Assembly (NCBI RefSeq): GCF_045862395.1
Contig: NZ_AP023087.1
Location: 4,282,450 to 4,314,449 of the forward strand
DNA length: 32,000 nucleotides
Reading direction: 5' to 3'
Source: Marinicellulosiphila megalodicopiae
GTDB taxonomy: Bacteria > Pseudomonadota > Gammaproteobacteria > Pseudomonadales > Natronospirillaceae
Below are positions 615 through 25,184 of the stretch, piece by piece; positions within the stretch are counted from its first letter, which is position 1, and the number at the start of each line of letters is the position of its first letter. Position numbers and translations under genes: made by a program. The notes below the pieces were generated by a model. It did not search any database, was not told the DNA's origin, and saw nothing but the letters and a program-made list of their open reading frames with translations.

Positions 615-616
615 AA

Positions 617-1006
617 ATGGTAAACAAAGCTGATCGCTTAGAGCGCTTAAAAGTATTACAGGAACAAGCAAGAAACCAAGAGCAGACGAGCTATTACGGC
701 GTGTTCAGCGAAGTTAGCGATTGTGCGAATATTCTGAATACTCTCGATCCTCAAAAACGCAAACCTTGGTTAACTGATGTACTTAATGACATGTATGTTA
801 AGCAACAAGGTATTTGTCCTGAATGTGGTCTAAAAATGGATCATAACGACTATGAAGTAGATCACAAAGTCCCTCATAAATTTGGTGGTGGAAACGAATC
901 ATCAAATATTCAATTAGTTCACCCCAAATGTAATCGACTTAAAGGTTCAAGTGTTGATACTTCTGTTTTGCTTCGATATTTGGAAGATCGATATCAAAAT
1001 TTATAG
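617..1006 (+). CDS. HNH endonuclease domain protein (129 aa)
   Basis: CPECGLKMDHNDYEVDHKVPHKFGGGNESSNIQLVHPKCNRLKG matches the HNH pattern with two paired-Cys motifs (CxxC, DH, HxxCN). Confidence 0.85.
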   Translation: MVNKADRLERLKVLQEQARNQEQTSYYGVFSEVSDCANILNTLDPQKRKPWLTDVLNDMYVKQQGICPECGLKMDHNDYEVDHKVPHKFGGGNESSNIQLVHPKCNRLKGSSVDTSVLLRYLEDRYQNL

Positions 1007-11024: not shown

Positions 11025-11600
11025 TTATGGCCAATTACGAATAATAATTTCCTCTATTATTAAATTGGCTGATTGTTGTTTATATGTAGCCCTAATTTTA
11101 TCTTTAAGTTTATGTTTTGCTTGCAGATAGTATAATGAGTCTGCTTGTAATAATTGTTTTTGTAATTCATCCAACTGGTTATTCACGCTTTTTTTAGCCT
11201 CATCAAACATTCTTGCGTTTCGTTCATCGTTGGTTGCATCTAATTGTTTTTGTTCAATTAAGGTTGCCTCATGTTTGGTTAGCATTATCTCAGGTGCGTC
11301 CAAATAAATTGTATTGTTTTTATATTCGCTATTAAAATTCCAATCTTTTGCATCAACTGACATTTCAAACTCTAAACTCCATTTGTATTGAACAATGCCT
11401 TTTCCAAGGCCCAGCCCTTTAGTATCTTTAATCGTGTCATTAAATAAAATATCAAATTCAATCAGGTTAAGCGTTTGAATTTGATTAATAGTGTTTGGAT
11501 CAAAATATTTTGAACTGACTTGTTTGGGAATATTTGCACCGATGATCATGCCGATTTCAATAATTAAAATTAAAAATACAACTTTCAAAAAATTATTCAT
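11025..11600 (-). CDS. Hypothetical membrane-anchored protein (191 aa), end of the diheme/P450 cluster; DUF4230-like at low confidence
   Basis: ORF track; N-terminal hydrophobic anchor FLKVVFLILIIEIGMIIG; overlaps the upstream gene by 8 bp. Confidence 0.6.
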   Translation of the reverse strand: MNNFLKVVFLILIIEIGMIIGANIPKQVSSKYFDPNTINQIQTLNLIEFDILFNDTIKDTKGLGLGKGIVQYKWSLEFEMSVDAKDWNFNSEYKNNTIYLDAPEIMLTKHEATLIEQKQLDATNDERNARMFDEAKKSVNNQLDELQKQLLQADSLYYLQAKHKLKDKIRATYKQQSANLIIEEIIIRNWP

Positions 11601-12240
11601 GATCGTGATCCTTTGCTTCTAAACCTTGCTCTGTATCTTGAAGGCTTTGCTCATCTTTAGTGAATCGTTTTACTACAAAATACACAATGGTCGATACAAT
11701 CATTACCGCCACAACATACGAAGTTAATATTTCAAATGCAGACACTGTAAAATTCAAACCTTTTGAAGCACCTAATAAAACAGGAAAACCCCAAGACACT
11801 AATGACACAGACCCAATTAATGTCATGATTATTTTTTGCTTATGGGTAATTGAATAGAATAATGTTTTCCCTTCATTATTATTTAATATCGGCAAAATAA
11901 ATCGATGCAATAAATAGCCATTAAATGACAACACAACCACAATGCTCACCTTTGACCACACTTTTGGATTTAGGACATTTTCAGGTTCAAAAATAGAATA
12001 ATGAATGATAAACCCAAGACCCGTTACCCATAAGATACACAAACCAATCGTGACTAGATTTGTTAAAAAATGCACCAATTTTAATTTTTCACTGCTTATC
12101 GGTTCAAATTGCAAAAATCGGATAATGATTAAATCGGATATCCAAGCACCACCCGCTCCAAAAGCCAGCCCAATAAAATGAAAAATAATTAATAATGTTT
12201 TGATATCTAATGCTTCGAAAATATTCACTGTATTAACCAC
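11593..12240 (-). CDS. Integral membrane protein (215 aa), probably four or five transmembrane helices
   Basis: LLIIFHFIGLAFGAGGAW, NLVTIGLCILWVTGLGFII, VSIVVVLSFNGYLLHRF, IMTLIGSVSLVSWGFPVLLG, YVVAVMIVSTIVYFVV. Confidence 0.7.
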   Translation of the reverse strand: MVNTVNIFEALDIKTLLIIFHFIGLAFGAGGAWISDLIIIRFLQFEPISSEKLKLVHFLTNLVTIGLCILWVTGLGFIIHYSIFEPENVLNPKVWSKVSIVVVLSFNGYLLHRFILPILNNNEGKTLFYSITHKQKIIMTLIGSVSLVSWGFPVLLGASKGLNFTVSAFEILTSYVVAVMIVSTIVYFVVKRFTKDEQSLQDTEQGLEAKDHDHE

Positions 12241-12466: not shown

Positions 12467-14302
12467 CTACAACGTTTTTAGATACTCAAGCAATGCCCAA
12501 ACACTTTGTTTATCATCACTCCAATCTAATTTATAAGTTTTACCATCTAAAGTAATGTCTTTATCATGTCCTGCATTACTAATTGATGGAGAACTTTGGG
12601 TATCAAATACATACCCTTCTTGTTCATCCCAATTATCCAATTCCCACTTAAACCCTACTAATTGAGTGTCGAAATCTAATTGGCTTTTTACAAATACATC
12701 AGGACGCTCATTTGGCACTAGCATATGATAAAGCGTAGGCACTGAACCATTATGCAAATAAGGCGCTTGCGCCCAAAGCCCAGGAAACGGCAATGCGTTA
12801 TATCCATTTTGCACTCTTGGTGGCAACATGACCTGTTTACTTTGCCCAACTAACGAAACCCCTTTATATTCTGCACAAGGCTGAACTTGCTTTCCTTCCA
12901 TTTCAATGGTGGTAGTTGGAGAACAATTTGCGTCACCTGCAAAACTTGCTTGCGCGCCGACTGTAATCACAGTGCCTGCCACTTTTGCACGCCCCATATC
13001 AGTTCCCATAATCGAATATACACGACCATTATTTGGTTGATGACAATCCGCACAGTTATCTTTGAATAATTGCTGTCCTGTTTTTGCTAGATCCACATCA
13101 ACGTCAAATGGATAAATAGCAGGTGGTAGTTTTTGCAATACTTTTTCAGCATGGGCTGAAACACTGATATCAATATTATCAAATCCTAGTGTAATTTGAG
13201 CAGCAATGTTTTTATACATTGGTAACGGGATATGACCATTCCATTGACCGCCACCATTTATTAATCGTGTTTCATCTTCATTCCAAACTGGATCGTGAGA
13301 GTCTTGATCCCATACAACCATTATGTCTGTCACACCATGACTGGCTGGCATAACTAATGGTGCAATTAACTTAGTTGTCATCTTTTCATCAAAGGTTTGA
13401 AATGCTGTGGCCGCATTAAACCCAATGGCATCTTCCATGCCGGCGAATCCAGAATTAATTCTATCTTTAATATTTGGATACAGTTTTTCGGTTAATGTCA
13501 CCCAACTTGCATACACGTTTTCTTGGTGTGTCACAAATTCAGCGATAATATCTGTCGCATCATTTTTAAATAATTGAATTTGAGCTGCCTCATAATTTGC
13601 ATCAAATACTCTTCCGTCGTATTGATAATTATTGTAAAAATAATTTGGATCTTGAGCCTCTACTTTATCTAGCGCGGTTAAAAATGCATCCACTACTAAT
13701 TGTTTTTTGGCAGACTCGTCAGTTTCATTGCCATAAATTTTATTTAAAGATTGGACAATACGCTCCCGATAACCAATCACGTTAAATTCAGAATTGATAC
13801 CGCCATCTAAATATTCAAACTCACCACTTGGTAATCTAACTCGACCAATATGACACCCTCCACAGGTAAACGAGGCGTAATCAATATCTGCAGTTAAATC
13901 TTTTCTCACTAAACCAGTAAAGCCAATTCCACGTGGAAATGGATACCCTACTAAGCGCTCATCATGAAACAATCCCATAACCGATAAAAAATTATCTTCA
14001 TCACCCCAATATTCAGGTGCAACTTCAGGCAATAATTTTAAGACAATCAAGGGAATACCATTGGTTTCGCTCACTGGAAAGTTTGCAAAATGATCATAGT
14101 TTACTTGGAATGTATCAATATGATCGGCAATATCCGCACGACGCTTTGCTTGAGCAAGCACCCAATCTTTAGGTACTGGTTTTACATAAGTGGATTTAGG
14201 TGCTTCTAACCGACTATCAAATAAACCACTTACTTTACCGTAAGCGAGTAATCCAATAATAGGCAATACAACAGCCGAAATTTTAAACAGAGGGTGATTC
14301 AT
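12467..14302 (-). CDS. Diheme c-type cytochrome (611 aa), RoxA/MauG-like superfamily, paralog A
   Basis: Two CxxCH motifs (FTCGGCHIGR, DNCADCHQPNNG); C-terminal GLWAQAPYLHNGSVPTLYHML...ALLEYLKTL; single N-terminal hydrophobic anchor. Confidence 0.85.
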   Translation of the reverse strand: MNHPLFKISAVVLPIIGLLAYGKVSGLFDSRLEAPKSTYVKPVPKDWVLAQAKRRADIADHIDTFQVNYDHFANFPVSETNGIPLIVLKLLPEVAPEYWGDEDNFLSVMGLFHDERLVGYPFPRGIGFTGLVRKDLTADIDYASFTCGGCHIGRVRLPSGEFEYLDGGINSEFNVIGYRERIVQSLNKIYGNETDESAKKQLVVDAFLTALDKVEAQDPNYFYNNYQYDGRVFDANYEAAQIQLFKNDATDIIAEFVTHQENVYASWVTLTEKLYPNIKDRINSGFAGMEDAIGFNAATAFQTFDEKMTTKLIAPLVMPASHGVTDIMVVWDQDSHDPVWNEDETRLINGGGQWNGHIPLPMYKNIAAQITLGFDNIDISVSAHAEKVLQKLPPAIYPFDVDVDLAKTGQQLFKDNCADCHQPNNGRVYSIMGTDMGRAKVAGTVITVGAQASFAGDANCSPTTTIEMEGKQVQPCAEYKGVSLVGQSKQVMLPPRVQNGYNALPFPGLWAQAPYLHNGSVPTLYHMLVPNERPDVFVKSQLDFDTQLVGFKWELDNWDEQEGYVFDTQSSPSISNAGHDKDITLDGKTYKLDWSDDKQSVWALLEYLKTL

Positions 14303-14312
14303 AATTTATACC

Positions 14313-16136
14313 TTAAAGTGTTTTTAAATATTCAATAATAGCCATTGCACCTGGCTTATCATCGGACCAATTTAATTTGTATTCAATACCATTTTCATTC
14401 ACATCTTGGTCGTGACCTTTATTTGAAAATGTTTCAAAACTTTTTGTATCAAAAACATAACTATGCTCTGCTGATACGGTTTGATGATTGTCTTGTACCC
14501 ACTGATAGCCTAAATATGTTTGATCATAGGTTAACTGACTTTTGATAAACGTAGTTGGTCGCTCATTAGGCACTAATAAATGATAAATAGTTGGCACCGA
14601 TCCGTTATGTAAATATGGAGCTTGAGCCCAAATTCCACTTAATGGTCTTGCGTTATAACCATGATGTTGATTATTAGGTGACATAATTAAATCTTCTTTT
14701 CCTTCTAAAGACACGCCACCAAATTGCGCACAGGGTTTCACTTGTTCACCATATAACTCAACCTTTGTTTGAGTAGAACATTCTTTAAAAAAACCACTGA
14801 TGCCGCCTTTTCTAATTAATGTATTTACAACATAACTACGGTCAAGATTCACACCAAGGTTACTATAAACCTTACCGTTAAATGGTTGATGACATTGCGC
14901 ACAGTTGTCTGCAAATAATGCTTCGCCTTTTTTAGCAAGTTCAACATTCACATCAAATGGATACACAGACGCAGGAAGTTTATCCAATAATTCGACAGAA
15001 AATGCAGACACTCTTAAATCATTATCATCTAAGCCAATTGTTAACTGTGCCGCCATATTACGATACATAGGAATAGGGATATTACCATTGTATTGCCCGC
15101 CACCATTAATTAACGTTTGATGAGAATTATCCCAATGCGCTTTTCTTTCATCTTGGCGCCATACAGTCATAAAATCCGTTATACCTGGAGAGCTCGGTAA
15201 AATGTGTTTGGAAAATAATTTTCCAAAAAAAGTCGAATGGGCATCATTATATGAATTAACTGTAAATATTCCGGTTGCATCTGCCATGCCGGGAAACCCT
15301 TCTAAAGAACGTGTCTGGAATCCCTTGTAATTTTTATCTAGTAACGCAGCATAACCGGTATAATCTTGCGTGGTAGTTTTATAAAAATCACCAATTAACG
15401 ATCCAGATTTCTCAATAAAAAGTTTAATTTGATTTTTTTCATATGCCAAATCAAAGTTAACTACATCATTTTTATATTCATTATAAAAGTAACTATCACT
15501 TACGGATATTGCTTTTTCAAGTGCTGTTAAAAATGCATTTTCTAGTAATTGTTGCTGTTTAATCGGATCAGATTCATCTCCTATTATTTTTTGAAGGGTT
15601 TGATAAGTTTTCACTCGATAAGCAACAATATTAAATTCAGTATTCACGCCGCCATCAATATAATGAATTTTATTATTTTGATCTATCACGCGCCCAATAT
15701 GACAAGCGCCACAAGTAAAGGATGTATAATCTATTTTGCCCATAGGCTCAATTCTAGCTAAGCCACTTATTCCTATACCACGAGCTATTGGATAATTTTC
15801 CTGCCTTGTATCTTTAAATAACCCTACGACATCTAAAAAGTTTTCTTCACTGCCCCATAATTCTGGTGCAATAATAGGTAATAATTTTAAAATAATGAAA
15901 GGTGTTCCATCTGTTTGGCTAAAAGCATAATCGGCAAACCAATCAAATGCTTCTTGATTATCTGCAATATATGATTCTTTTTGCTGTATTTTTTGTTGCT
16001 GAAATTCAGACCAATTTTGTGTAACAGGTATTACAAATGGTTTACCTGTTGGGGATGCTAATTGTTTTGTGGGAATTGCTTTATATATTGTGATGCCTAC
16101 CAATAAAAACATGGCAATTAATAATATTTTTTTCAT
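14313..16136 (-). CDS. Diheme c-type cytochrome (607 aa), close paralog of the 611-aa protein
   Basis: FTCGACHIGR, DNCAQCHQPFNG, GIWAQAPYLHNGSVPTIYHLL...AIIEYLKTL; 10 bp from the next gene. Confidence 0.85.
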   Translation of the reverse strand: MKKILLIAMFLLVGITIYKAIPTKQLASPTGKPFVIPVTQNWSEFQQQKIQQKESYIADNQEAFDWFADYAFSQTDGTPFIILKLLPIIAPELWGSEENFLDVVGLFKDTRQENYPIARGIGISGLARIEPMGKIDYTSFTCGACHIGRVIDQNNKIHYIDGGVNTEFNIVAYRVKTYQTLQKIIGDESDPIKQQQLLENAFLTALEKAISVSDSYFYNEYKNDVVNFDLAYEKNQIKLFIEKSGSLIGDFYKTTTQDYTGYAALLDKNYKGFQTRSLEGFPGMADATGIFTVNSYNDAHSTFFGKLFSKHILPSSPGITDFMTVWRQDERKAHWDNSHQTLINGGGQYNGNIPIPMYRNMAAQLTIGLDDNDLRVSAFSVELLDKLPASVYPFDVNVELAKKGEALFADNCAQCHQPFNGKVYSNLGVNLDRSYVVNTLIRKGGISGFFKECSTQTKVELYGEQVKPCAQFGGVSLEGKEDLIMSPNNQHHGYNARPLSGIWAQAPYLHNGSVPTIYHLLVPNERPTTFIKSQLTYDQTYLGYQWVQDNHQTVSAEHSYVFDTKSFETFSNKGHDQDVNENGIEYKLNWSDDKPGAMAIIEYLKTL

Positions 16137-16168
16137 TTTATTTTTCTTATCGTTATTATTAAATAAAA

Positions 16169-16190
16169 AAGCCTCTCATAAGAAAGGCTT
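16169..16190 (-). terminator. Intra-cluster terminator or attenuator after the P450 gene
   Basis: Reverse strand AAGCCTTTCTTATGAGAGGCTTTTTTATTT: stem plus T-tract between 16203 and 16136. Confidence 0.65.
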
Positions 16191-16202
16191 AATAGGGTTA
16201 TC

Positions 16203-17534
16203 CTATTTCCATTTTAATTTGTAATCTTCTGGGAAAGGCCCATCTTTATAATCCATCTCAGATGCAGATTGAATATCTTTTCGCATTAAAACCTGCTTTA
16301 CCATTTCAGGAATCATTGCCATTCCTATGTATTTACCCACACAGTCGTGAGATGCAAATCCATAGTTAAAATTATGATACCAATTACGATTTGCATTAAA
16401 TTCTTCAGGATTTTCATAAGAATAATCATCAAACATTGCAGACTGAGTTAACGTTAAAACATTGGTTCCTGATGGAATTTTTGTTTCACGATCCGTGCCT
16501 TTTGCTATGGTGTAATCCATTGATGTTTGACGAAATAGATATGGGCTAATCGGTACAAATCGTAAAGCCTCCCAGACCATCGCATCAATTTTATCTGTAT
16601 TAGAATCAAGAGATGCCGCTTTGGCTTGTTCAAATAATTCAGGACGTTCAATAAAAAAGTTAATCACTTGCGCAACGGCTTGTGAGGTAGTTTCTACGGC
16701 ACCAATTAATAAGCCACCAGCGTTTGTACCAATACGCGTTAATGGAAAATCAACTTGAGGAGCGAATGAGCTACGCAACATACGTTTTACAATATCATCT
16801 TTAAATTCATATGCTGGCTTTTTAGCGATGGCTCTAAATATATTTAAAACTTGTACAGCACGACCCAATAACCGATCTTTGATTTGTACCGTTAGAATTT
16901 TACGAATCATTAACACAGTAACATAATCGACTAATTCTTTAGAACACTGTGCATGAATGTCTACAATTTCATCAAATCGCTCTTTAGAATTTAAGTCAAA
17001 TGGCTGATTATGGAATGTATTATATTGATTCCAATATGACCATTTTAATAATTTTTTACGACTAATTCCGTCCAAACCAAAATATTCTTGAACTAATATC
17101 GCAGGAACCATACGACAATATTCATTTACAATTTCAATTTCTCCGTCGGCATCATCCAAAATTTTCTTAGATGAATCACGAATTAATTTTCTAATTCTTG
17201 GAATATCTTCGCGATTTAACATACCTTGCATAATTGATTTTTCACGATAATGTAGCGCATCATCATCGTGTGCCATTAAATATCCAGGTTCAGTATCAGT
17301 GACACCCATCTTTGGTTTATATAACGCGTTGGTAAAAATCGTCGGCATTTGTAATGCATCACGAACATCTGTAAATAATGCAAGTAACGTACATTCAGGC
17401 GTCACCAATACTGGACGTTCCTCTCGTAACTGTTTAAAAAATGGAAGCGGTTCATCATGCATCCATTTTTTCACTAATGGAAATTTGTCCGCATCAGCAG
17501 CGGCATCAAATAACTCAAGATAATTTGTAGTCAT
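16203..17534 (-). CDS. Cytochrome P450 (443 aa) with variant heme-binding loop
   Basis: I-helix LLIGAVETTSQAV, EALR (ExxR), NPEEFNANR, Cys-ligand loop YGFASHDCVGKYIG. Confidence 0.85.
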   Translation of the reverse strand: MTTNYLELFDAAADADKFPLVKKWMHDEPLPFFKQLREERPVLVTPECTLLALFTDVRDALQMPTIFTNALYKPKMGVTDTEPGYLMAHDDDALHYREKSIMQGMLNREDIPRIRKLIRDSSKKILDDADGEIEIVNEYCRMVPAILVQEYFGLDGISRKKLLKWSYWNQYNTFHNQPFDLNSKERFDEIVDIHAQCSKELVDYVTVLMIRKILTVQIKDRLLGRAVQVLNIFRAIAKKPAYEFKDDIVKRMLRSSFAPQVDFPLTRIGTNAGGLLIGAVETTSQAVAQVINFFIERPELFEQAKAASLDSNTDKIDAMVWEALRFVPISPYLFRQTSMDYTIAKGTDRETKIPSGTNVLTLTQSAMFDDYSYENPEEFNANRNWYHNFNYGFASHDCVGKYIGMAMIPEMVKQVLMRKDIQSASEMDYKDGPFPEDYKLKWK

Positions 17535-17544
17535 GATTCACCCC

Positions 17545-19692
17545 TTATAATGTTTTCAAATATTCAATTAAATCCCAGCGCTCTTTTTCAGATAACGCAG
17601 GTAATACTTCACCATTGTTTTGAGCAGTTTTTCCAGCACCGTATTCGTGCCCTGTGTTCATGTCACCAACACGAGTGGTAATAAATGCACTGCCATCATA
17701 ATCTTTTGATTTAAATCCAACTCGATTAGCGTCAAACTCACGACTGCCAACTACAAATTCATCTGGTCGATATTCACCCTCAGCAGGATCAGTGTCTAGT
17801 TTTTTAGGTAATAATAAATCGTATAAAGTTGGAACCGAACCATTATGTAGATAAGGAGCAGTAGCCCAAATTCCATTTAAGGCACGACCTTTATAAGCCA
17901 ATAATGAACTGTATGGGTTAGAAGTTGTATCAGCAACATAATTACCTTTTTTAACGGTTTCTGGCATTTTATTTTCAAAAAATGAAGACCCCAAAACATA
18001 CAAACGATCTAACCAACGACGTATAAAGAACTTATCAGGGTCGGGTGTTGCAATCACTCCTTTTGTTGCAGAAGTTAATATTTGCAATACAGGTGCGTCC
18101 TCACTAATAAATACATCACCAACTCCTGTTATAGATTGAACAGTGTGCTGAAAATTACCAGATTTACCTGTTGCCATCACACCATTTATAGCAGCTGCTT
18201 TATCAGTACCGACTAAGTTTATATCCATCATATTTGCGATGATGATTCTGTCCGCATTATTTCGATCGACCACTTCGTGACATGATTGACAGTATTGAGC
18301 ATAAACTAGCTGTCCACGTTCTGCTTTAACTTGATCGATTTCACCTAATATTTCTTGTGGCCAAACTGGTGACTGCAAGCGTTTAAGTTGAGCTTCTAAA
18401 CGGCGTAAATTTGTGACATCGATTGAAGATTTAAAATTAACTACTTCGTTTTTATTTTTTTGATCGGTTATTAAAGTAGATAATTCAAATCCATTAGGCT
18501 CATGTGATGTCCAATCTAAAATGCCAAACACACCAATCACTTCTCCGGTATTACGACCAAGCGGCCCAACACCTGCATTATTTGCTACACCATTCCACTG
18601 AGTATAATCTGCCTGTCCTATATCCCATAAAAATGGATAGCTCACTGGAGCATTTGGTTCATTAAAAATACTATTACGTACTCGTAATAAATCACGTTGA
18701 TTTAAACCTGGGTATCCTGGTTCTGTAGATGCTAATCGATCAAGTACCAATCCAAACTGTTTATCCACAATAATATTTTCATTTACGCCTTCAAGTACTA
18801 AATCGATTTGATCACGAGTTAAAACTCTACGACGTTCGCCGTTAGTTCCTGGTGCCGTGACCATTTCCATGGTATTGGCCAACTGCTGTTTGTTAATCAT
18901 ATGCTGTAATACACGGTTATAAATTCGTCCAAATGCATCTAGGCGACCATAACCATAATCGATATGACTGTGGTTTACTGTATTGTATAAACTGATTGTT
19001 TTTAGCCATTGCTCAGTTGACTCAATAACTTTAGCTTCTTTTTTAAAGTCATTATTACGTGCTAAAACAGTTTCAACATAACGTGTTTTTTTAGCTTCAT
19101 CTGCTAACGTGGCACGCATTGATTTTTCAATTGCAGTTAAAAAGCCAACCATATCGGCCATTGCTGGACCGCCATCAATACGAATTGCCGATGTGATACC
19201 ATCTTTTGTGAAATTAACTTGGTTAGTATGACAAGCAGCACAGGTGTAACCGATGTAGTCATTTCCCTGATATGTATCTTTAACTAAACCTACTGGTAAA
19301 CCATCTGGGTTTAAGAATGTTTCTTTTTGCGGTAAATACCGATACTTATCAATATTGTGGTTGTCACGTAACAATTTATTTGAATTTTCTTGCTCTAATG
19401 ACATAAATAAATCATATGGCATTAATGCTGAACCTTGAGTGGTATTATAAAACCAAAGGCTTTCTGCTTCTGTCCAACCTTGATCTAAATATACAGGGGT
19501 TGTAAAACTTTCCCCAAATTCACCATTTTCAAGTGCAATTGCACCTCGGTCGGGATCATCATCCCAGTTTTGGTAGGTTTTACCTGCAATTAATGCGATC
19601 ACCATTAATAAAATAATGACACCAACAATGCGCCCTGAGTATTTCAATAGGTAAAAAATTGCTGCGAAAATGGATTGGAAAAATGTAGCCAT
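17545..19692 (-). CDS. Diheme c-type cytochrome (715 aa), RoxA (rubber oxygenase)-like
   Basis: YTCAACHTNQVNF, QYCQSCHEVVDR, ESLWFYNTTQGSALMPYDLFMSLEQ, GIWATAPYLHNGSVPTLYDLLLP, LIEYLKTL; N-terminal transmembrane segment. Confidence 0.8.
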   Translation of the reverse strand: MATFFQSIFAAIFYLLKYSGRIVGVIILLMVIALIAGKTYQNWDDDPDRGAIALENGEFGESFTTPVYLDQGWTEAESLWFYNTTQGSALMPYDLFMSLEQENSNKLLRDNHNIDKYRYLPQKETFLNPDGLPVGLVKDTYQGNDYIGYTCAACHTNQVNFTKDGITSAIRIDGGPAMADMVGFLTAIEKSMRATLADEAKKTRYVETVLARNNDFKKEAKVIESTEQWLKTISLYNTVNHSHIDYGYGRLDAFGRIYNRVLQHMINKQQLANTMEMVTAPGTNGERRRVLTRDQIDLVLEGVNENIIVDKQFGLVLDRLASTEPGYPGLNQRDLLRVRNSIFNEPNAPVSYPFLWDIGQADYTQWNGVANNAGVGPLGRNTGEVIGVFGILDWTSHEPNGFELSTLITDQKNKNEVVNFKSSIDVTNLRRLEAQLKRLQSPVWPQEILGEIDQVKAERGQLVYAQYCQSCHEVVDRNNADRIIIANMMDINLVGTDKAAAINGVMATGKSGNFQHTVQSITGVGDVFISEDAPVLQILTSATKGVIATPDPDKFFIRRWLDRLYVLGSSFFENKMPETVKKGNYVADTTSNPYSSLLAYKGRALNGIWATAPYLHNGSVPTLYDLLLPKKLDTDPAEGEYRPDEFVVGSREFDANRVGFKSKDYDGSAFITTRVGDMNTGHEYGAGKTAQNNGEVLPALSEKERWDLIEYLKTL

Positions 19693-20394: not shown

Positions 20395-20606
20395 GTGACC
20401 AACAAAATATTCAACATCGGACGCGACGGATTTGATGCAGGTCAAGATGCGTTTTCTTTTGGTATTAGTGCAAAACAATATGTGTCGATGGCACTTGTTT
20501 AAAAGCAACAACTACTCGTGATTTGACGGACATAGTTGGATTAGGTTGTTTGATTAAACTGGAAGGTGGCGGACGCAATGTTCGGTATCAGTTAAGTTTG
20601 GATTAG
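20395..20606 (+). pseudogene. Remnant of the C-terminal region of a Fic-family protein, frameshifted
   Basis: Manual translation: NIGRDGFDAGQDAFSFGISAKQYVSMALV* then, in another frame, KATTTRDLTDIVGLGCLIKLEGGGRNVRYQLSLD*, resembling the winged-helix tail of DUF4172/Fic proteins. Confidence 0.6.
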
Positions 20607-21034
20607 GTTTGATTTGGTTTAGTGGATTTGATTTAGTAAATAAAGTTTTATTAGAAAAGTATTGTGAAGCAAGCGATTTGACCTAGAATCGAATCTCTTT
20701 TTTGTAGGTCGTATGCTTTCACACAGGGATGTGTGCAAGGGGCGTGAGCATGCTTAAAGGGATTTAAGTAGTAGAGCAATGTCTGGAACTAATTGCCGAG
20801 AACGCGGTAGCTTTGCTGCGAAAAACTAATCAGGGTTTTTGAGTGTCCATACCACACTAGTGACCCAAGCCCGAGCAGGTTTGTTTTGCGGATTTTAGAT
20901 GACAGATGGGCGCGCGACCCTTTGGCTCTTAATTATATAATGTATAATGGCGTTTATGAAAACAGCTAACTTATATTTTTATGTAATATGTTTTAAATGC
21001 ATATTGCATTACCACACCAAAATAAGAATTAATA

Positions 21035-21711
21035 ATGAGTAAGAAAAAAGATAAAAACGCCCGAAAAAAATAGTTCAAAAAAAAGCACTAAAACAAAAAA
21101 ATAAATCCATTTCGTTTCAAGCAAGTCAGGCTGTAAAAGAGAAAACAGCCGTTGAAAAATTAAATTACCGCATCACCGAGGATCCATTTTCAGTATCAAC
21201 GAAACAAACACTACCCGAAGAAATAGAAAAAAGGAAACAATATCTTTTTGATAACTTAGAAGAGCGCCCAGAAGATTTAATAGAAGAGCTCGAACTTTTA
21301 GTGACTCAATATCCTCAAAATAATATCCTCTCGAACTTTCTTTCTAATGCCTATCTATTAACTAAACAAATGGAAAAACATGAAGCATTATCAGAAAAGA
21401 CTTTTTCAGAGTGTCCAGAATACCTATATGGACGTGTTCATTGGGCAAAAATATTAATGGATCGCAACGATTACAAACAAGCCAATGAAGTATTTAACAA
21501 TACATGGGATTTAAAGAAACTGTACCCACAACGTAAAGTATTTCACATAACAGAGGTACTAGCATTTTATAGTACAGCTATTACCTACCATGAAAATATG
21601 CAAGAAGAGAGTGAATTTTTATTTGCCTTTGATGTATTAAGAGAGCTTGATGTTGAAGAAGATATATTATTACAATATTCCCCATCAGTTATGAAATGGC
21701 GTTTTCTTTGA
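21035..21711 (+). CDS. TPR-like protein (~225 aa) interrupted near its start by an A7-run frameshift; the ORF track shows only 21301..21711
   Basis: ATG at 21035 reads MSKKKDKNARKK* ; the -1 frame after CGAAAAAAATAG continues IVQKKALKQKNKSISFQASQAVKEK...LEERPEDLIEELELLVTQYPQNN... without a stop into the 136-aa ORF. Confidence 0.6.
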
Positions 21712-21948
21712 TGTGTGTTTAGTCGATAAATAGAAGGCTTTTATCTTTAAAGGGTCGGTTGTTTCGTAATACTTTTTGAGTGTCTATGTCAAAATAAAGG
21801 CCTGACCCCAAGGACTCCAGCACAGTCAGCTATTATATTTAACTTAAAACCAAGAAAAATTAGTTTCAAACATTGCCTGCAAGTATGGCTGTCATATACA
21901 CAATCAAATCGGCAGCCTGATGATCATATATTTAAATTAATATCAAAA

Positions 21949-22089
21949 CGGCAAGTAGGTAATCGACCCGGAAGAATAGAGCCAAGAGCGATTAAACGAA
22001 GGCCAAAACCTTATAAATTATTGACCGTTACACGCGAAGTTGCAAGAGAGGATATTAGAAGAAATGGCCACCCAAAGAAACAGAAATAG
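21949..22089 (+). pseudogene. C-terminal remnant of an IS4-family-like transposase
   Basis: Manual translation RQVGNRPGRIEPRAIKRRPKPYKLLTVTREVAREDIRRNGHPKKQK*. Confidence 0.75.
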
Positions 22090-22188: not shown

Positions 22189-23907
22189 TTATCCAAACGC
22201 TTCACCAAATAACCAATTAATAGGGTCTTTATCATACAACTCTAATATTACATTATTTTGAATGTATTGTTTTTCTTCTTTATTTAAAATATTTAATTTA
22301 TTGTCTTTGTCAAGAATCTCATCCAATGTGGATTGCCCCAAATTCACAAAATATTGTAATTCACTGCTTTTTATAATTTCAATAATAACTTTAAATATCA
22401 TTGATTTTTGTCTAGGGTCCATCTCGGAAAAAATACAACCATCATGTGCAATAAAACTTAGTAAGCTGGGATTTAATTGATAAAGAAGTAGATCGTAGCA
22501 GAAAATTTTAACCTCATTAATCCCTTGTGATCCATCTCGTGGAATTTGAGCATCAATATTAAACAAATATTTTGCGTCGTTGGTTTCACTTATCTCTAAT
22601 GAACCTCCGTGGTTTAAATAAAACTTCTTAACCAGTGCCCTGAACATATTCTCAATTGTCTCAAGAAAAATTTTAGAATCAACTAGATATTTTACAGCTT
22701 CAGCTTTTATATTTGCATTTTCCAAATCATATTGGCTTTTATCTTCTTTAAAACTTTGTAAAATCTGGCGATATTTATCCAACTCGCCAATTTCACTTTC
22801 AAAACTTCTTATTCTTTCGTTAATTGAGTTGTATTCTTCTAGCGCCCCTTTTGAATCTAGATCTTTTAAAATAGAATCTCTAATTCGCTCATTGTCTTTT
22901 AAATTAACATTCAAAGTATTCAATTGATCTTCTAATTCTAGTATTTCAGAATTAATTCTACTAGCTCTATTTTTTAATAAATTTTTATGGAAATCTGTAG
23001 CCTGATCTAATCGAATAGAGATTTTATCCCCAAAGAAAAACGATGCTTCTTCATAAATCTTCTTCACTTTTACAAGATCTATTTCTTTTACCCCCGCTTC
23101 ATCAAGGCTTTGTTTTTTCCGCCCCATACTTTTAATTACTTCATATATTTCATTTCTAATTTTGTTTATAATTTCAGTTTTAGCGTCAGCTTCTCTTTTA
23201 TATTTATCATAATTTTCAGCTATCACAAAATCTTGTTTATTCTTAATTAAAGTCTTTAACTCATCCTTTAAGTCATTTATATTACTCTCCCCTAACAAGC
23301 TTTCATAATTTTCTATAACACTTTTAGCTTTTTTTAACTTATTTAATTTTTCTTTTACAATTGATTTCTTAGTTACTAGATTAGTATTAATGCCTAGTAA
23401 TGCTAAGTTGGTATACATTTGATGATAATCTTGCTCTGGTCTACCTTGCTGGGCAATTATACTAGAATAGTAAGTCCCGCCATATCGCCTAGCAAATACA
23501 TTTAATATCTGCTTAAAGCTAACACCATTATAAAGCTCATTTTTAATGAATATTTTTTTAAGTTCAGATGGGTAATTTGATTTAACTATTTTTTCACCGT
23601 TTAAAATATGGTGTGATTGGCCGAAGTCTTTTTCAACCTTATAAGGCTTACCTTCATGCTCAAATTCTAAATAAAAAACACCATAACCAGAAAGGAAATT
23701 TTGAATTTTTTTCTCTGTAGGTTTCGTTGGGTCAAGATACGAGCCAAGCATTAAATGAATTAAGTTAAGTGAAAAACTTTTCCCTACTCCATTATATGTT
23801 TTTTTATCGGCACTCGTAAGTTGCAATCCTGCCAATATATTAAGTCCGCTTTCAAATTTTAACGTCTTAAATTTAGAATTATTAGAACTTAATTTTAATA
23901 ATTTCAT
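22189..23907 (-). CDS. DUF2326 / RecN-SMC-like ABC ATPase, ABC-3C system component (572 aa)
   Basis: Walker A-like TYNGVGKSFSLNL, central coiled coil, Walker B/C-terminal region LLSFIAHDGCIFSEMDPRQK. Confidence 0.85.
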   Translation of the reverse strand: MKLLKLSSNNSKFKTLKFESGLNILAGLQLTSADKKTYNGVGKSFSLNLIHLMLGSYLDPTKPTEKKIQNFLSGYGVFYLEFEHEGKPYKVEKDFGQSHHILNGEKIVKSNYPSELKKIFIKNELYNGVSFKQILNVFARRYGGTYYSSIIAQQGRPEQDYHQMYTNLALLGINTNLVTKKSIVKEKLNKLKKAKSVIENYESLLGESNINDLKDELKTLIKNKQDFVIAENYDKYKREADAKTEIINKIRNEIYEVIKSMGRKKQSLDEAGVKEIDLVKVKKIYEEASFFFGDKISIRLDQATDFHKNLLKNRASRINSEILELEDQLNTLNVNLKDNERIRDSILKDLDSKGALEEYNSINERIRSFESEIGELDKYRQILQSFKEDKSQYDLENANIKAEAVKYLVDSKIFLETIENMFRALVKKFYLNHGGSLEISETNDAKYLFNIDAQIPRDGSQGINEVKIFCYDLLLYQLNPSLLSFIAHDGCIFSEMDPRQKSMIFKVIIEIIKSSELQYFVNLGQSTLDEILDKDNKLNILNKEEKQYIQNNVILELYDKDPINWLFGEAFG

Positions 23908-24115
23908 CTTGCACCTCCAATTTACCGATTATGTACAAATAATTTATACAATGTATTATTGTTTCAATGCTTATCTTTTTTGGGTAAGTTTTTAATAGCT
24001 CTGAATGAATACAATCAACAGTGAAATCTTTATGCTTTGCCAAATCTATAATGTATGAAGAAATACAAAATAAAGAATCTATTGGCTGTATGGATTTATT
24101 TGGAAGTATCATCAA
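23882..24115 (-). CDS. Small ABC-3C middle-component-like protein (77 aa; true start may be the second Met)
   Basis: MILPNKSIQPIDSLFCISSYIIDL...CINYLYIIGKLEV; overlaps both neighbours (26 bp and 20 bp), consistent with a middle component. Confidence 0.7.
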   Translation of the reverse strand: MMILPNKSIQPIDSLFCISSYIIDLAKHKDFTVDCIHSELLKTYPKKISIETIIHCINYLYIIGKLEVQDEIIKIKF

Positions 24116-25109
24116 TTTTCACTCCCACTTCGCATATTTCAAAAAAATATGATATTAATATCCAAGAGATAATCATGCTATTAAAGTCTTTTACGTCCAT
24201 TAGGCTTTCAAGAGCGTTATTAAGTCTAATTATTATTTTATTGAAGTCTAAATTATACTCAGAAGCTTTGACGTGTAATTGCGTTACGCTAATTCTATTT
24301 AAAATACTTTTAGCCTCTTTACTGCTGAGCATTTCCACTAATATATTTTTATATAAATCTCCAATTACAAATTCTTGTAAATCGCTAGCTAAGTTGCCGT
24401 CATCAATCCCTTTTATAATAGTGGTATAATCTAAGCTTTTTTTAATTTCAAACGAAATTCTCTCATTTAATTTGTTTAGCTTAATTTTAGGATCAACTTC
24501 TATTGAGTTAAAGTCTTCATCATATGATGGTTGCGGTAAGTTATTTTTTGCTTTTAAAAGCTTTTTATATGTTAGGTTTAACACTATATGGTCAGTGTAT
24601 TTATCAGATTTATTCCTGAAGTATAATTCGCATAAATTTACCAGTCTATTTGTTTCTAAATTTTCTATAGATTTTATTAAATCACTCGAGTCATTTAATA
24701 TACTAATTAAATCTAGTTTATAAACTTCAAGTATAGAGTCTATTGTCTCTTTTTTTGGTCTGGATTTTTCTAATAAATAGTATATTGAAATATTATAGTC
24801 TTTATATTTTTTATCAGATAATGCCTTAAGAGAGTGAAGTATTTTTTCTTTAGACCTAGTCGTTGTGACTTGAATAAGCTCTTTTTTGGTAGTATCTATT
24901 AAGTCAATATATGGGGCATTATTGCACCCAAAATTTGCATTTTCGAACTTCCTGTCAAAAACCAAATTAAAAACATCTCTAAAATAATTTTCACCATGAA
25001 TATTTAAGCACTGATCATTTACAAATTGATGATGCTCAATATCTAGCCTAGTAATAGCCAGAATCCTGCTGATTGTATTAAAGGCCTCAATTCTATCCTG
25101 CACCATCAT
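24096..25109 (-). CDS. SMEK-domain-like effector of an ABC-3C system (337 aa)
   Basis: YFRDVFNLVFDRKFENANFGCNNAPYIDLIDTTKKELIQVTTTRSKEKILHSLKAL resembles the SMEK REase-like signature (IDLID...QVTxTxSxxKI). Confidence 0.75.
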   Translation of the reverse strand: MMVQDRIEAFNTISRILAITRLDIEHHQFVNDQCLNIHGENYFRDVFNLVFDRKFENANFGCNNAPYIDLIDTTKKELIQVTTTRSKEKILHSLKALSDKKYKDYNISIYYLLEKSRPKKETIDSILEVYKLDLISILNDSSDLIKSIENLETNRLVNLCELYFRNKSDKYTDHIVLNLTYKKLLKAKNNLPQPSYDEDFNSIEVDPKIKLNKLNERISFEIKKSLDYTTIIKGIDDGNLASDLQEFVIGDLYKNILVEMLSSKEAKSILNRISVTQLHVKASEYNLDFNKIIIRLNNALESLMDVKDFNSMIISWILISYFFEICEVGVKIDDTSK

Positions 25110-25184
25110 TTAATCACTCTTTCATTTTTATGGTTTCTAAATTAAAGCCATTTTAAAAACAGCTTTAATTTAACTGTAAAGCTA

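What the first reader, a model, noticed from the sequence alone, without database searches (positions are those of the whole stretch)
22189..25109. Overlapping three-gene ABC-3C conflict system: SMEK-type effector, middle component, DUF2326 ATPase
Gene order on the minus strand is 337-aa SMEK-like protein, 77-aa small protein, 572-aa RecN/SMC-like ATPase, with overlaps of 20 and 26 bp implying translational coupling. The ATPase has Walker A (NGVGKS), a long coiled coil and a HDGCIFSEMDPRQK Walker B region. The SMEK-like N-terminus carries a restriction-endonuclease-like IDLID...IQVTTTRS signature; its C-terminal ~200 aa is of unknown function. This matches the ABC-three-component systems predicted computationally (Aravind/Burroughs group) as biological-conflict or anti-invader modules. 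Most subtypes have little experimental characterisation. The tract is visibly more AT-rich than adjacent ilvD and flanked by IS/Fic debris.
Basis: partly seen in the sequence, partly recalled or inferred. Interest (0 to 1): 0.75.

Follow-up and report, generated by a model that had tools for sequence, protein, structure and literature searches.

The report
SMEK-nuclease Lamassu (ABC-3C) defence operon
This is an intact three-gene bacterial anti-phage/anti-plasmid cassette of the known Lamassu (ABC-3C) family, in which a small SMC/Rad50-like ATPase and an adaptor protein probably hold a DNA-cutting enzyme in check until foreign DNA is sensed. It is a new member of a catalogued but untested subtype, not a new kind of system.

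Summary
Three minus-strand ORFs of 337, 77 (76 from the ATG) and 572 aa lie at 22189-25109 and overlap by 20 (17 from the ATG) and 26 nt. All three pass Pfam's curated cut-offs: SMEK_N, ABC-3C Middle Component 6 and DUF2326.

- **Family.** ABC-3C is now treated as part of the Lamassu family (LmuA/LmuC/LmuB). Cryo-EM structures and a mechanism were published in 2025, and SMEK is listed there as an effector type of "short" Lamassu.
- **Effector C-terminal half.** The "unknown" C-terminal half is the ABC-3C effector C-terminal domain CTD10, matched in 12 of 36 close homologues. It corresponds by position to the docking/oligomerisation domain of LmuA.
- **Effector N-terminal domain.** The SMEK domain is homologous (E 1.9e-18) to the nuclease domain of the Kordia jejudonensis short-Argonaute partner.
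- **ATPase.** Its model matches B. subtilis YydD, then SMC, Rad50 and LmuB structures.

The A-C-B cassette recurs in 27 further loci across distant phyla, with a conserved 26/29-nt C/B overlap and no conserved fourth gene.

The likely mechanism, inferred and not tested here, is DNA sensing by LmuB2-LmuC, release and oligomerisation of LmuA, then indiscriminate DNA cleavage (abortive infection).

Verdict: new member of a known kind; modest interest.

The parts
24096..25109 (-). lmuA-like effector gene (337 aa): N-terminal SMEK nuclease domain plus C-terminal ABC-3C CTD10-type domain
   Evidence: ORF found. It is 100% identical to an NCBI 'SMEK domain-containing protein' of Marinicellulosiphila megalodicopiae. 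AF2 model mean pLDDT is 79.6.
24666..25073 (-). SMEK_N domain (residues 13-148), a restriction-endonuclease-fold nuclease. Conserved E25, N36, H38, E40, D69, Q80, T82-84 and K89.
   Evidence: Pfam SMEK_N E 1e-25 and NCBIfam 4.2e-19. PADLOC pAgo-associated REase model 1.1e-16. A profile of 36 homologues hits PDB 26bh_D, the 'Mrr domain from Kordia jejudonensis Mrr-APAZ pAgo', at E 1.9e-18 with the same residues aligned.
24099..24662 (-). Effector C-terminal all-helical domain (residues ~150-337). Proposed docking/oligomerisation domain (LmuA CTD equivalent; ABC-3C CTD10).
   Evidence: CTD10 (PF20275) is matched by 12 of 36 full-length homologues, best E 1.6e-5, but not by the window protein itself at E<=1. 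Nine of the 12 best Foldseek PDB hits of the whole model are V. cholerae LmuA chains, though all are weak (best E 0.085, TM 0.23). phmmer over 1.84 billion representatives finds this domain almost only at residues ~150-335 of ~330-aa proteins or fragments of them (one weak hit, E 2e-4, is in a 930-aa protein).
23882..24112 (-). Middle component (MC6; LmuC equivalent), 76 aa from ATG 24112 (77 aa from TTG 24115). Probably a single winged-helix-like domain.
   Evidence: Pfam MC6 E 4.3e-9, above the cut-off. It is conserved between A and B in 27 related loci. The only PDB profile hit to a wHTH is marginal (Fur N-terminal wHTH, E 0.66), so the fold is inferred.
22189..23907 (-). lmuB-like SMC/Rad50-type ABC ATPase (572 aa; DUF2326/YydD family)
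   Evidence: Pfam DUF2326 3.9e-24. PADLOC PDC-M68B 5.9e-64. PADLOC LmuB models are hit by 17, 9, 4 and 3 of 32 homologues, best E 1.9e-11. AF2 model pLDDT 84.2. Foldseek: YydD 9a6c_A 2.8e-24; LmuB 9ux7_A 2.3e-12, 9uxh_F 6.6e-11 and 9hqu_A 8.5e-10; cohesin and Rad50 score similarly.
23776..23793 (-). Walker A / P-loop N39-G-V-G-K-S44 of LmuB
   Evidence: N39, G42, K43 and S44 are invariant in alignments A2 and A3.
22618..23382 (-). Antiparallel coiled-coil insertion of LmuB (residues ~176-430). The apex lies near 296-301 and is flanked by conserved A288, F290-F292, F306 and H307. There is no CxxC zinc hook.
   Evidence: AF2 secondary structure. The only Cys residues are at positions 470 and 491.
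22441..22530 (-). C-terminal head motifs of LmuB: signature-like S460-Q-G and Walker B F485-I-A-H-D489 followed by G490 (no catalytic Glu); E495 and D497 follow just downstream. Q518 occupies the H-loop position further downstream.
   Evidence: Invariant or near-invariant columns. Motif assignment by position is my inference from standard ABC ATPase architecture.
23882..23907 (-). 26-nt overlap of the MC6 stop and the lmuB start, with GGAGG 7 nt upstream of the lmuB ATG inside MC6 (implies translational coupling)
   Evidence: Sequence. The overlap is 26 nt in 20 related loci and 29 nt in 7, out of 27.
24096..24112 (-). 17-nt overlap (20 nt if the TTG start is used) of the lmuA stop and the MC6 start
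   Evidence: This overlap varies in related loci: 4, 7, 17 or 26 nt.
25110..25184 (-). 75-nt spacer between the ilvD stop and the lmuA start, holding an AT-rich hairpin (TTAAAGC...GCTTTAA) and an AAGAG ribosome-binding site. No consensus promoter or terminator was found, so the source of transcription is unresolved.
   Evidence: Sequence. The consensus scan gave no site in the spacer and 0 terminators.
21874..22089 (+). Flank: C-terminal fragment of an IS4-family transposase (debris 100 nt downstream of lmuB)
   Evidence: tblastn shows ~50% identity to annotated IS4-family transposases. Translation.
20431..20606 (+). Flank: C-terminal fragment of a Fic-family protein, interrupted by a stop/frameshift
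   Evidence: tblastn shows 53-57% identity to annotated Fic family proteins, using a query joined across the frameshift. Raw translation. Pfam gave no hit.

Best explanation
The region is an intact short-type Lamassu (= ABC-3C) defence operon in the order lmuA-lmuC-lmuB, carried by the gammaproteobacterium Marinicellulosiphila megalodicopiae.

Shown here:
- LmuA is an N-terminal SMEK (restriction-endonuclease-fold) nuclease domain joined to a helical C-terminal domain of the ABC-3C CTD10 type.
- The 76-aa middle component belongs to family MC6.
- LmuB is a 572-aa Rad50/SMC-like ABC ATPase with a ~120-residue-per-arm coiled coil, an intact Walker A, and a Walker B Asp followed by Gly instead of the catalytic Glu.
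- The three genes overlap and recur as a self-contained cassette in distant phyla.

Inferred by analogy with the solved V. cholerae and Salmonella Lamassu complexes (PMC12663957; bioRxiv 10.1101/2025.03.14.643221):
1. An LmuB dimer with LmuC holds monomeric LmuA through its C-terminal domain and keeps the nuclease inactive.
2. The complex binds DNA ends or replication intermediates of an invading phage or plasmid, with ATP.
3. LmuA is released and oligomerises through its C-terminal domains.
4. This assembles active SMEK nuclease sites that degrade DNA without sequence discrimination, killing or arresting the infected cell (abortive infection).
For: - **Family profiles.** All three proteins score above Pfam's curated cut-offs. 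NCBIfam SMEK_N also matches.
- **Effector C-terminal domain.** CTD10 of ABC-3C is matched in 12 of 36 close homologues.
- **Link to LmuB.** PADLOC LmuB models are matched by up to 17 of 32 close homologues of the ATPase, best E 1.9e-11. The AF2 model (pLDDT 84.2) matches LmuB chains 9ux7_A, 9uxh_F and 9hqu_A/B at E 1e-12 to 1e-9.
- **Link to LmuA.** LmuA chains are 9 of the 12 best PDB matches to the effector model.
- **Nuclease identity.** The SMEK domain is homologous to the K. jejudonensis short-pAgo nuclease domain at E 1.9e-18, with E/N-H-E/D/Q-T/K residues conserved. That SMEK-APAZ/pAgo complex is reported to cleave DNA (PMC10810196; PMC12205087, both citing Kim et al. 2020).
- **Cassette behaviour.** The A-C-B order is kept in 27 further loci from Alpha- and Gammaproteobacteria, Campylobacterota, Bacteroidota, Saccharibacteria and others. 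The C/B overlap is conserved at 26 or 29 nt and there is no conserved fourth gene.
- **Literature.** ABC-3C equals Lamassu (PMC10586767). SMEK is listed among short-Lamassu effectors, and short LmuB averages ~600 aa with a divergent Walker B (PMC12663957).
- **Integrity.** All invariant residues of the three families are present in the window proteins.
Against: - No experiment on a SMEK-type Lamassu was found in the searchable literature.
- The window ATPase itself hits PADLOC LmuB only at E 0.039. A 23-sequence profile finds no LmuB chain in the PDB by sequence.
- By fold, the ATPase is no closer to LmuB than to cohesin or Rad50. Specific LmuB membership therefore rests on transitive homology and on published classifications.
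- The LmuA C-terminal match to solved LmuA is below significance (E 0.085, TM 0.23), and CTD10 is not matched by the window protein itself.
- Walker B is hhhhD-G, not one of the D[Q/S/T/E] variants described for short Lamassu, and the H-loop position holds Gln.
- MC6 gives no PADLOC LmuC match.
- The neighbourhood is not a defence island.
- Expression signals were not identified.
Confidence: 0.78

Rival explanations
1. The architecture is the same, but the main role is plasmid elimination or competition between mobile elements rather than phage defence. The system would sense small multicopy replicons and kill or cure plasmid-bearing cells, as described for V. cholerae DdmABC.
For: Lamassu/DdmABC is described as both anti-plasmid and anti-phage (PMC10586767). 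The cassette sits next to IS4 and Fic debris. Its phyletic spread is patchy and cross-phylum.
Against: Nothing in the sequence separates phage targets from plasmid targets. This is a difference in target, not in mechanism, and both may hold.
Confidence: 0.12
2. It is a selfish addiction or toxin-type module. The nuclease would be a toxin restrained by the ATPase and adaptor, and the cassette would persist through post-segregational killing without sensing invaders.
For: The cassette is compact, overlapping and horizontally mobile, has no conserved partners and lies beside transposon debris.
Against: Relatives with the same architecture that have been tested need ATP binding and DNA sensing and protect against phage (PMC12663957). 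A 572-aa SMC-like sensor is hard to explain as a mere antitoxin. In this window the cassette is chromosomal and next to housekeeping ilvD.
Confidence: 0.05
3. It is a housekeeping Rad50/SbcCD-like DNA-repair module, or a decaying, non-functional remnant.
For: The ATPase model matches Rad50 and SMC about as well as it matches LmuB. Lamassu is proposed to derive from SbcCD (PMC12663957). The adjacent genes are pseudogenised.
Against: There is no Mre11/SbcD-type phosphoesterase. The distribution is sporadic and not lineage-wide. All three ORFs are intact and keep every family-invariant residue. The C/B overlap is conserved.
Confidence: 0.05

Closest known systems
Short (type II) Lamassu LmuA-LmuC-LmuB, e.g. 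V. cholerae DdmABC / Lamassu Vc-Cap4 (PDB 9NXX, 9NY1, 9NY5, 9NYG; 9UXH/9UXL) and Salmonella LmuACB (9HQU/9HQX)
   Same: Three genes in the order effector, small middle component, SMC-like ATPase. LmuB is ~570-650 aa with a short coiled coil, an intact Walker A and no catalytic Glu after the Walker B Asp. There is no zinc hook, as in Vc LmuB. The effector is an N-terminal PD-(D/E)xK-type nuclease plus a helical C-terminal domain. SMEK is listed as a short-Lamassu effector (PMC12663957).
   Different: The effector domain is SMEK, not Cap4. Sequence similarity to the solved proteins is undetectable by HMM-to-sequence search. The residue after the Walker B Asp is Gly. The middle component is only 76 aa and belongs to family MC6. 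No experimental test of this subtype was found.
ABC-3C systems (Krishnan, Burroughs, Iyer, Aravind 2020), as encoded in Pfam families MC6, CTD10, SMEK_N and DUF2326
   Same: Direct profile matches to SMEK_N, MC6 and DUF2326 above the curated thresholds. CTD10 is matched in homologues.
   Different: No real difference; this is the computational description of the same thing. I could not read the original paper, which is not held, so subtype details come from the Pfam family names only.
Bacillus subtilis YydD (DUF2326), with YydB
   Same: It is the best structural match to the ATPase: 9a6c_A, E 2.8e-24, TM 0.58. It has the same Pfam family, and JGI names the homologues 'YydD (DUF2326 family)'.
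   Different: Only 19% identity. The partner in that entry is YydB, not a SMEK protein. The entry is an integrative model, not an experimental structure of a defence complex.
SMEK-APAZ (also called Mrr-APAZ; 'SPARMA') partner of the Kordia jejudonensis short Argonaute
   Same: The effector nuclease domain is homologous (E 1.9e-18 over residues ~4-163) with shared conserved residues. In both cases the domain is the output of an invader-DNA sensor. Related SPARDA nucleases are activated by oligomerisation or filament formation (bioRxiv 10.1101/2025.04.08.647717; PMC12205087).
   Different: The sensor is an RNA-guided Argonaute with APAZ, not an SMC-like ATPase. The C-terminal partner domain is unrelated.
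PADLOC candidate system PDC-M68 (PADLOC-DB v2.0.0)
   Same: The ATPase matches PDC-M68B end to end at E 5.9e-64. Eighteen of 36 effector homologues weakly match PDC-M68A, best E 1.1e-4.
   Different: The window effector itself does not reach E 0.1 for PDC-M68A. PDC-M68 has no middle-component model that matches MC6. PDC systems are candidates, and I found no paper on M68.
Rad50-Mre11 / SbcCD and SMC complexes
   Same: ABC head split by an antiparallel coiled coil, with Foldseek E 1e-12 to 1e-9. Lamassu is proposed to derive from SbcCD (PMC12663957).
   Different: The coiled coil is much shorter. There is no zinc hook or hinge and no Mre11-type nuclease or kleisin/KITE partners. It is an accessory, horizontally transferred cassette.

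Membership tests
ABC-3C (Pfam-defined components) | Middle component of a recognised MC family encoded between the effector and the ATPase | tested here: met
   PF20293 MC6 scores E 4.3e-9, 36.7 bits against a cut-off of 27.2. The position between A and B is conserved in 27 loci.
ABC-3C (Pfam-defined components) | ABC ATPase with a coiled-coil insertion (DUF2326-type) as the third gene | tested here: met
   PF10088 scores E 3.9e-24. Walker A is invariant. The AF2 model shows a split head plus helical arms 176-430.
ABC-3C (Pfam-defined components) | Effector with an N-terminal enzymatic domain and one of the ABC-3C C-terminal domains (CTD) | tested here: inconclusive
   SMEK_N is met at E 1e-25. 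CTD10 is matched by 12 of 36 homologues (43-58% identical over their full length), best E 1.6e-5, but not by the window protein itself at E<=1.
Lamassu (short / type II) | LmuB homologue (the one component shared by all Lamassu systems) | tested here: inconclusive
   The window protein hits PADLOC LmuB at E 0.039 only. Homologues 48-71% identical to it hit four LmuB models, best E 1.9e-11. The fold matches LmuB chains at E 2e-12 to 1e-9, but cohesin and Rad50 match equally well. A profile-versus-PDB sequence search finds no LmuB.
Lamassu (short / type II) | LmuB of ~600 aa with Walker A Gx4GK[S/T] and a divergent Walker B hhhhD[Q/S/T/E] (PMC12663957) | tested here: inconclusive
   Length 572 aa and Walker A NGVGKS are met. 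Walker B is F-I-A-H-D-G, with Gly (90% or more) or Ser after the Asp. The catalytic Glu is absent, as in the family, but Gly is not among the listed residues.
Lamassu (short / type II) | LmuA = effector domain + linker + C-terminal domain that docks on LmuB/LmuC and mediates oligomerisation | tested here: inconclusive
   The two-domain layout is met. Solved LmuA chains are the top Foldseek hits but are not significant (E 0.085-3, TM ~0.2). Docking and oligomerisation cannot be tested here.
Lamassu (short / type II) | SMEK listed as a recognised effector type of short Lamassu | tested here: met
   Stated in PMC12663957 and its preprint. The window effector is SMEK_N.
Lamassu (short / type II) | Protection against phage or plasmids that depends on LmuB ATP binding and the LmuA active site | not testable with these tools
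   This needs plaque and plasmid assays. No published test of a SMEK-type system was found.
PD-(D/E)xK (restriction-endonuclease fold) nucleases | alpha-beta-beta-beta-alpha-beta core with an acidic residue on strand 2 and an (E/Q)xK-like motif on strand 3 or the next helix | tested here: met
   In the AF2 model, strands 70-72 and 77-82, helix 87-98 and strand 106-111 carry D69, Q80/T82 and K89. The domain is homologous to a deposited 'Mrr domain' structure. Weak Foldseek hits to EcoO109I, Vsr and T7 endonuclease I were also seen. Catalysis itself was not tested.

The most novel reading that the evidence does not exclude
This DUF2326/MC6/SMEK clade may be a mechanistic variant of Lamassu rather than a simple effector swap.

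The features that suggest this:
- Its LmuB lacks both the catalytic Glu (Walker B D-G) and the H-loop His (an invariant Gln518 sits there). It may therefore act as a non-hydrolysing or single-turnover ATP-binding switch.
- It has no zinc hook but carries a conserved aromatic apex (A288, F290-F292, F306, H307).
- Its middle component is reduced to one 76-aa domain whose reading frame overlaps lmuB by a fixed 26/29 nt across phyla.

The trigger and the release step could then differ from the DNA-end/ATP-hydrolysis model derived from V. cholerae. The SMEK effector, shared with short Argonaute systems, might be activated by filament-like assembly as in SPARDA.
Probability: 0.15. Interest if true: 0.5.

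Novelty: new member of a known kind. Interest (0 to 1): 0.25.

Why it matters
The locus gives a clean, intact, compact (2.9 kb) example of the SMEK-effector subtype of short Lamassu. I found no experimental test of this subtype. PADLOC-DB v2 profiles tie it to the candidate PDC-M68 far more strongly than to Lamassu.

It also links two defence families through a shared output domain: SMEK serves as the nuclease of both SMC-like (Lamassu) and short-Argonaute sensors.

Testing it would show whether the sequester-release-oligomerise mechanism solved for Cap4-type Lamassu applies to other effectors, and to an LmuB that has Gly after the Walker B Asp.

It does not open a new category. The value is incremental: annotation, subtype validation and possibly a small programmable-trigger nuclease module.

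Tried and rejected
- **Exact-sequence contig look-up** for the ATPase found nothing on record. The source organism came from the homologue search instead.
- **Sequence searches of the PDB.** A single-sequence search and a 23-sequence profile of the ATPase found no LmuB, only marginal coiled-coil, Rad50 and SMC hits. An MC6 profile against the PDB gave only a marginal Fur wHTH hit.
- **Domain swapping of the C-terminal domain.** A full-library phmmer search with the C-terminal domain alone found it almost only in SMEK-type ~330-aa proteins or fragments of them (the one exception is a weak hit, E 2e-4, in a 930-aa protein). This gives no evidence for swapping at this sensitivity.
- **Conserved fourth gene.** Flanking ORFs were clustered across 27 loci. 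Only generic histidine-kinase and response-regulator paralogues recur, so the idea was rejected.
- **Defence-island hypothesis.** Neighbours in the window are ilvD, a pfkB kinase, glycosidases, RoxA-like cytochromes c, a P450 and a LysR regulator, so the idea was rejected.
- **RNA and boundary features.** Rfam (gathering threshold on the whole window; E<=1 on 20400-21100) and tRNA scans found nothing. There is no tRNA-linked integration site, and no clear island-bounding direct repeats were found.
- **Expression signals.** The promoter/terminator scan was uninformative: 21 sites against 19.2 expected, and 0 terminators.
- **Literature gaps.** Krishnan et al. 2020 could not be read. Nothing was found on DUF2326, YydD defence function or PDC-M68.

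Full report
**1. The observation**

The six-frame ORF scan shows three consecutive minus-strand ORFs:
- 24096-25109: 337 aa, ATG start.
- 23882-24115: 77 aa, TTG start.
- 22189-23907: 572 aa, ATG start.

Reading the sequence refines the start of the small gene. One codon after the TTG there is an ATG at 24112, preceded by GGGAG. Homologues align from that Met. The protein is therefore probably 76 aa and the upstream overlap 17 nt. The lmuB ATG at 23907 is preceded by GGAGG, which lies inside the small gene.

The cassette has GC 0.284, against 0.459 for ilvD and 0.360 for the rest of the window. However, its GC3 (0.23-0.26) matches that of the neighbouring P450 and cytochrome genes (0.24). The AT-richness mostly reflects Lys/Asn/Ile-rich proteins and is only weak evidence of foreign origin.

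The flanking "debris" is real:
- A C-terminal fragment of an IS4-family transposase lies at about 21874-22089.
- A Fic-family C-terminal fragment, broken by a stop/frameshift, lies at about 20431-20606.

**2. What the three proteins are**

Pfam places each protein above its curated threshold:

| Protein | Pfam family | Residues | E-value |
|---|---|---|---|
| 337 aa | SMEK_N | 13-148 | 1e-25 |
| 77 aa | ABC-3C Middle Component 6 (MC6) | 4-71 | 4.3e-9 |
| 572 aa | DUF2326 | 427-568 | 3.9e-24 |

NCBIfam agrees for SMEK_N.

The proteins are 100% identical to NCBI entries of Marinicellulosiphila megalodicopiae. Those entries are annotated only as "SMEK domain-containing" and "DUF2326 domain-containing".

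**3. The effector (337 aa)**

An alignment of 36 full-length homologues at 43-58% identity shows these invariant or near-invariant residues in the N-terminal domain: E25, N36, H38, E40, D69, Q80, T82-T84 and K89.

A profile of that alignment hits one solved structure, PDB 26bh, at E 1.9e-18. That entry is "the Mrr domain from Kordia jejudonensis Mrr-APAZ pAgo", and the same residues align. PADLOC independently matches a pAgo-associated REase model.

Two papers call this Kordia partner protein SMEK-APAZ. They report that its complex with the short Argonaute cleaves DNA (PMC10810196; PMC12205087; both cite Kim et al. 2020). The domain is therefore an effector nuclease already seen as the output of another invader-sensing system.

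The AF2 model (pLDDT 79.6) gives the expected alpha/beta core. Strands 70-72 and 77-82, helix 87-98 and strand 106-111 carry D69, Q80/T82 and K89. An all-helical C-terminal half follows.

Evidence on it:
- It matches Pfam CTD10, "C-terminal domain 10 of the ABC-3C systems", in 12 of 36 homologues (best E 1.6e-5). The window protein itself does not match.
- Foldseek against the PDB puts V. cholerae LmuA chains in nine of the top twelve places. All are individually below significance (best E 0.085, TM about 0.2).
- A phmmer scan of 1.84 billion representatives with the C-terminal half alone finds it almost only at residues ~150-335 of ~330-aa proteins or fragments of them (the one exception is a weak hit, E 2e-4, in a 930-aa protein). 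At this sensitivity it travels with SMEK.

**4. The ATPase (572 aa)**

Conserved motifs:
- Walker A N39-G-x-G-K43-S44 is invariant.
- The signature-like S460-Q-G is conserved.
- The Walker B strand F-I-A-H488-D489 is conserved.
- The residue after the Walker B Asp is Gly (90% or more) or Ser, not Glu.
- The H-loop position holds an invariant Gln518.

The AF2 model (pLDDT 84.2) is a split ABC head with antiparallel helical arms over residues 176-430. The only cysteines are at 470 and 491, so there is no CxxC zinc hook. The apex is flanked by conserved A288, F290-F292, F306 and H307.

Foldseek results:
- Best hit: B. subtilis YydD, the DUF2326 prototype (9a6c_A, E 2.8e-24).
- Next, a band at E 1e-12 to 1e-9 containing cohesin, Rad50 and the solved Lamassu LmuB chains (9ux7_A, 9uxh_F, 9hqu_A/B, 9hqx_B).

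By sequence:
- The window protein matches PADLOC's candidate PDC-M68B end to end (E 5.9e-64) and LmuB only at E 0.039.
- Among 32 homologues 48-71% identical to it, 17, 9, 4 and 3 match four different LmuB models, best E 1.9e-11.
- A profile search of the PDB by sequence finds no LmuB.

The SMC/Rad50-like fold is therefore firmly shown. The specific link to LmuB rests on transitive homology and on the literature.

**5. The middle component**

The MC6 protein is well conserved (P4, K6, P10, D12, D33 and L59 are invariant). It has no PADLOC match and only a marginal profile hit to the winged helix of Fur (E 0.66). This fits, but does not prove, the published remark that short-Lamassu LmuC models resemble HTH regulators (PMC12663957).

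**6. Conservation of the cassette**

A scan of one genome per species found 36 loci encoding relatives of the effector. In 27 further non-duplicate loci the same A-C-B order is present. These come from Alpha- and Gammaproteobacteria, Campylobacterota, Bacteroidota, a Saccharibacteria MAG, Muiribacteria and others. LmuB identity across them is 43-56%.

The MC6/LmuB overlap is 26 nt in 20 loci and 29 nt in 7. The A/C junction varies between 4, 7, 17 and 26 nt.

Clustering of flanking ORFs found no conserved fourth gene. The only recurrent neighbours are generic two-component-system paralogues. The cassette is therefore self-contained and horizontally mobile.

In the window it lies 75 nt downstream of ilvD on the same strand. 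No consensus promoter or terminator was found, so read-through versus own promoter is unresolved. The wider neighbourhood is metabolic, not a defence island. Rfam and tRNA scans found nothing.

**7. How it most likely works**

Shown here:
- The domain identities.
- The intact ATP-binding motif.
- The nuclease-fold residues.
- The overlapping-gene cassette architecture and its conservation.

From the literature:
- ABC-3C, Lamassu and DdmABC are one superfamily: an effector LmuA (N-terminal enzyme plus variable C-terminal docking domain), a "middle component" LmuC, and the Rad50-like LmuB (PMC10586767).
- In V. cholerae an LmuA1B2C1 complex sequesters monomeric LmuA.
- ATP promotes release of LmuA, which tetramerises through its C-terminal domains to build an active nuclease site. 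The outcome is non-specific DNA degradation (PMC12663957).
- That paper lists SMEK among effectors specific to short Lamassu. It describes short LmuB as ~600 aa with a Walker B lacking the usual Glu.

Inference: the window system works the same way, with SMEK as the nuclease. I put about 0.8 on the identity and about 0.6 on the detailed mechanism.

**8. Rivals**

- **Anti-plasmid role.** This is a difference of target, not mechanism, and cannot be separated from phage defence by sequence.
- **Pure addiction module.** Unlikely, given the large sensor ATPase and the behaviour of tested relatives.
- **Housekeeping repair or decayed remnant.** Contradicted by the sporadic distribution, the absence of an Mre11-type partner, and intact ORFs that keep every family-invariant residue.

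**9. Novelty and verdict**

This is a short-type Lamassu (ABC-3C) operon of the SMEK effector subtype. The subtype is already catalogued (2025), but I found no experimental test of it.

Features of modest interest:
- The Walker B "D-G" and the H-loop Gln, which suggest very slow or no ATP hydrolysis.
- The hook-less apex with conserved aromatics.
- The minimal 76-aa middle component.
- The fixed 26/29-nt C/B overlap.
- The sharing of the SMEK output domain with short Argonaute systems.

None of these takes the system outside the known kind. Rating: new member of a known kind; interest about 0.25.

Noticed in passing
window 23882-23907; loci L001-L030: The overlap between the middle-component stop and the lmuB start is fixed at 26 nt (20 loci) or 29 nt (7 loci) across distant phyla. 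The effector/middle-component junction varies (4, 7, 17 or 26 nt). An out-of-frame overlap this long and this conserved constrains both the MC6 C-terminus and the LmuB N-terminus.
   Followed up: partly
L022 and L023 (Campylobacter concisus CCONP22O1, contig positions 1,301,798-1,314,781 and 984,941-997,924): Two loci in one genome are 100% identical over all 12,984 nt fetched, including the whole cassette. This is either a large recent duplication or mobile element, or an assembly artefact.
   Followed up: partly
L031:6001-8946 and L035:5998-7197: SMEK_N-like N-termini occur in other architectures: a 981-aa ORF in a Methylobacter MAG and a 399-aa ORF in a Phycisphaera MAG. Neither has an adjacent LmuB homologue. 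Their C-terminal parts were not examined.
   Followed up: no
L032, L033, L034, L036: Distant cassettes (Bacillota, Hufsiella, Citrobacter, Bacteroides) pair a SMEK-like effector (29-35% identity over the N-terminal domain only) with a DUF2326-like ATPase only 16-19% identical. Their Walker B contexts differ (HDN, or LLND-K). No MC6 was detectable by tblastn.
   Followed up: no
L025:2722-4509: The lmuB homologue in a Paraglaciecola sea-ice MAG contains an internal stop codon. It is either a pseudogene or a sequencing error.
   Followed up: no
window 21036-21711 (+): A ~220-aa ORF with weak TPR-like similarity (TPR_Slam, E 0.016) appears to be broken near its start by a frameshift in an A-rich run at about 21060-21075. 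Only the 136-aa distal part is an intact ORF.
   Followed up: partly
window 20655-20676 / 21755-21776 and 20836-20875 / 21773-21812: A 22-nt inverted repeat (82%) and a 40-nt imperfect direct repeat (70%, sharing TTTTTGAGTGTC) bracket the ~1.1-kb segment that holds the broken TPR-like ORF. They may be ends of a decayed insertion element.
   Followed up: no
window 20650-20930: A locally GC-rich (0.39) patch with strong positive GC skew (+0.29) lies between the Fic fragment and the A-rich region. It has no ORF of note and no Rfam match, even at E<=1. Its nature is unknown.
   Followed up: partly
window 324-1006 (+): A 96-aa ORF with no Pfam match is followed 2 nt later by a 129-aa HNH endonuclease (PF01844, E 5e-10). 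This could be a small two-gene module or a homing-type element.
   Followed up: no
window 12467-19692 (-): A same-strand cluster encodes three paralogous RoxA-like dihaem cytochrome c proteins (611, 607 and 715 aa) and a cytochrome P450 (443 aa). Two unannotated ORFs (215 and 191 aa) lie downstream at 11025-12240.
   Followed up: no
window 25110-25184: The ilvD-lmuA spacer holds an AT-rich hairpin (TTAAAGC-N13-GCTTTAA) but no consensus terminator or sigma-70 promoter. The defence cassette may therefore be transcribed by read-through from a housekeeping amino-acid biosynthesis gene.
   Followed up: partly
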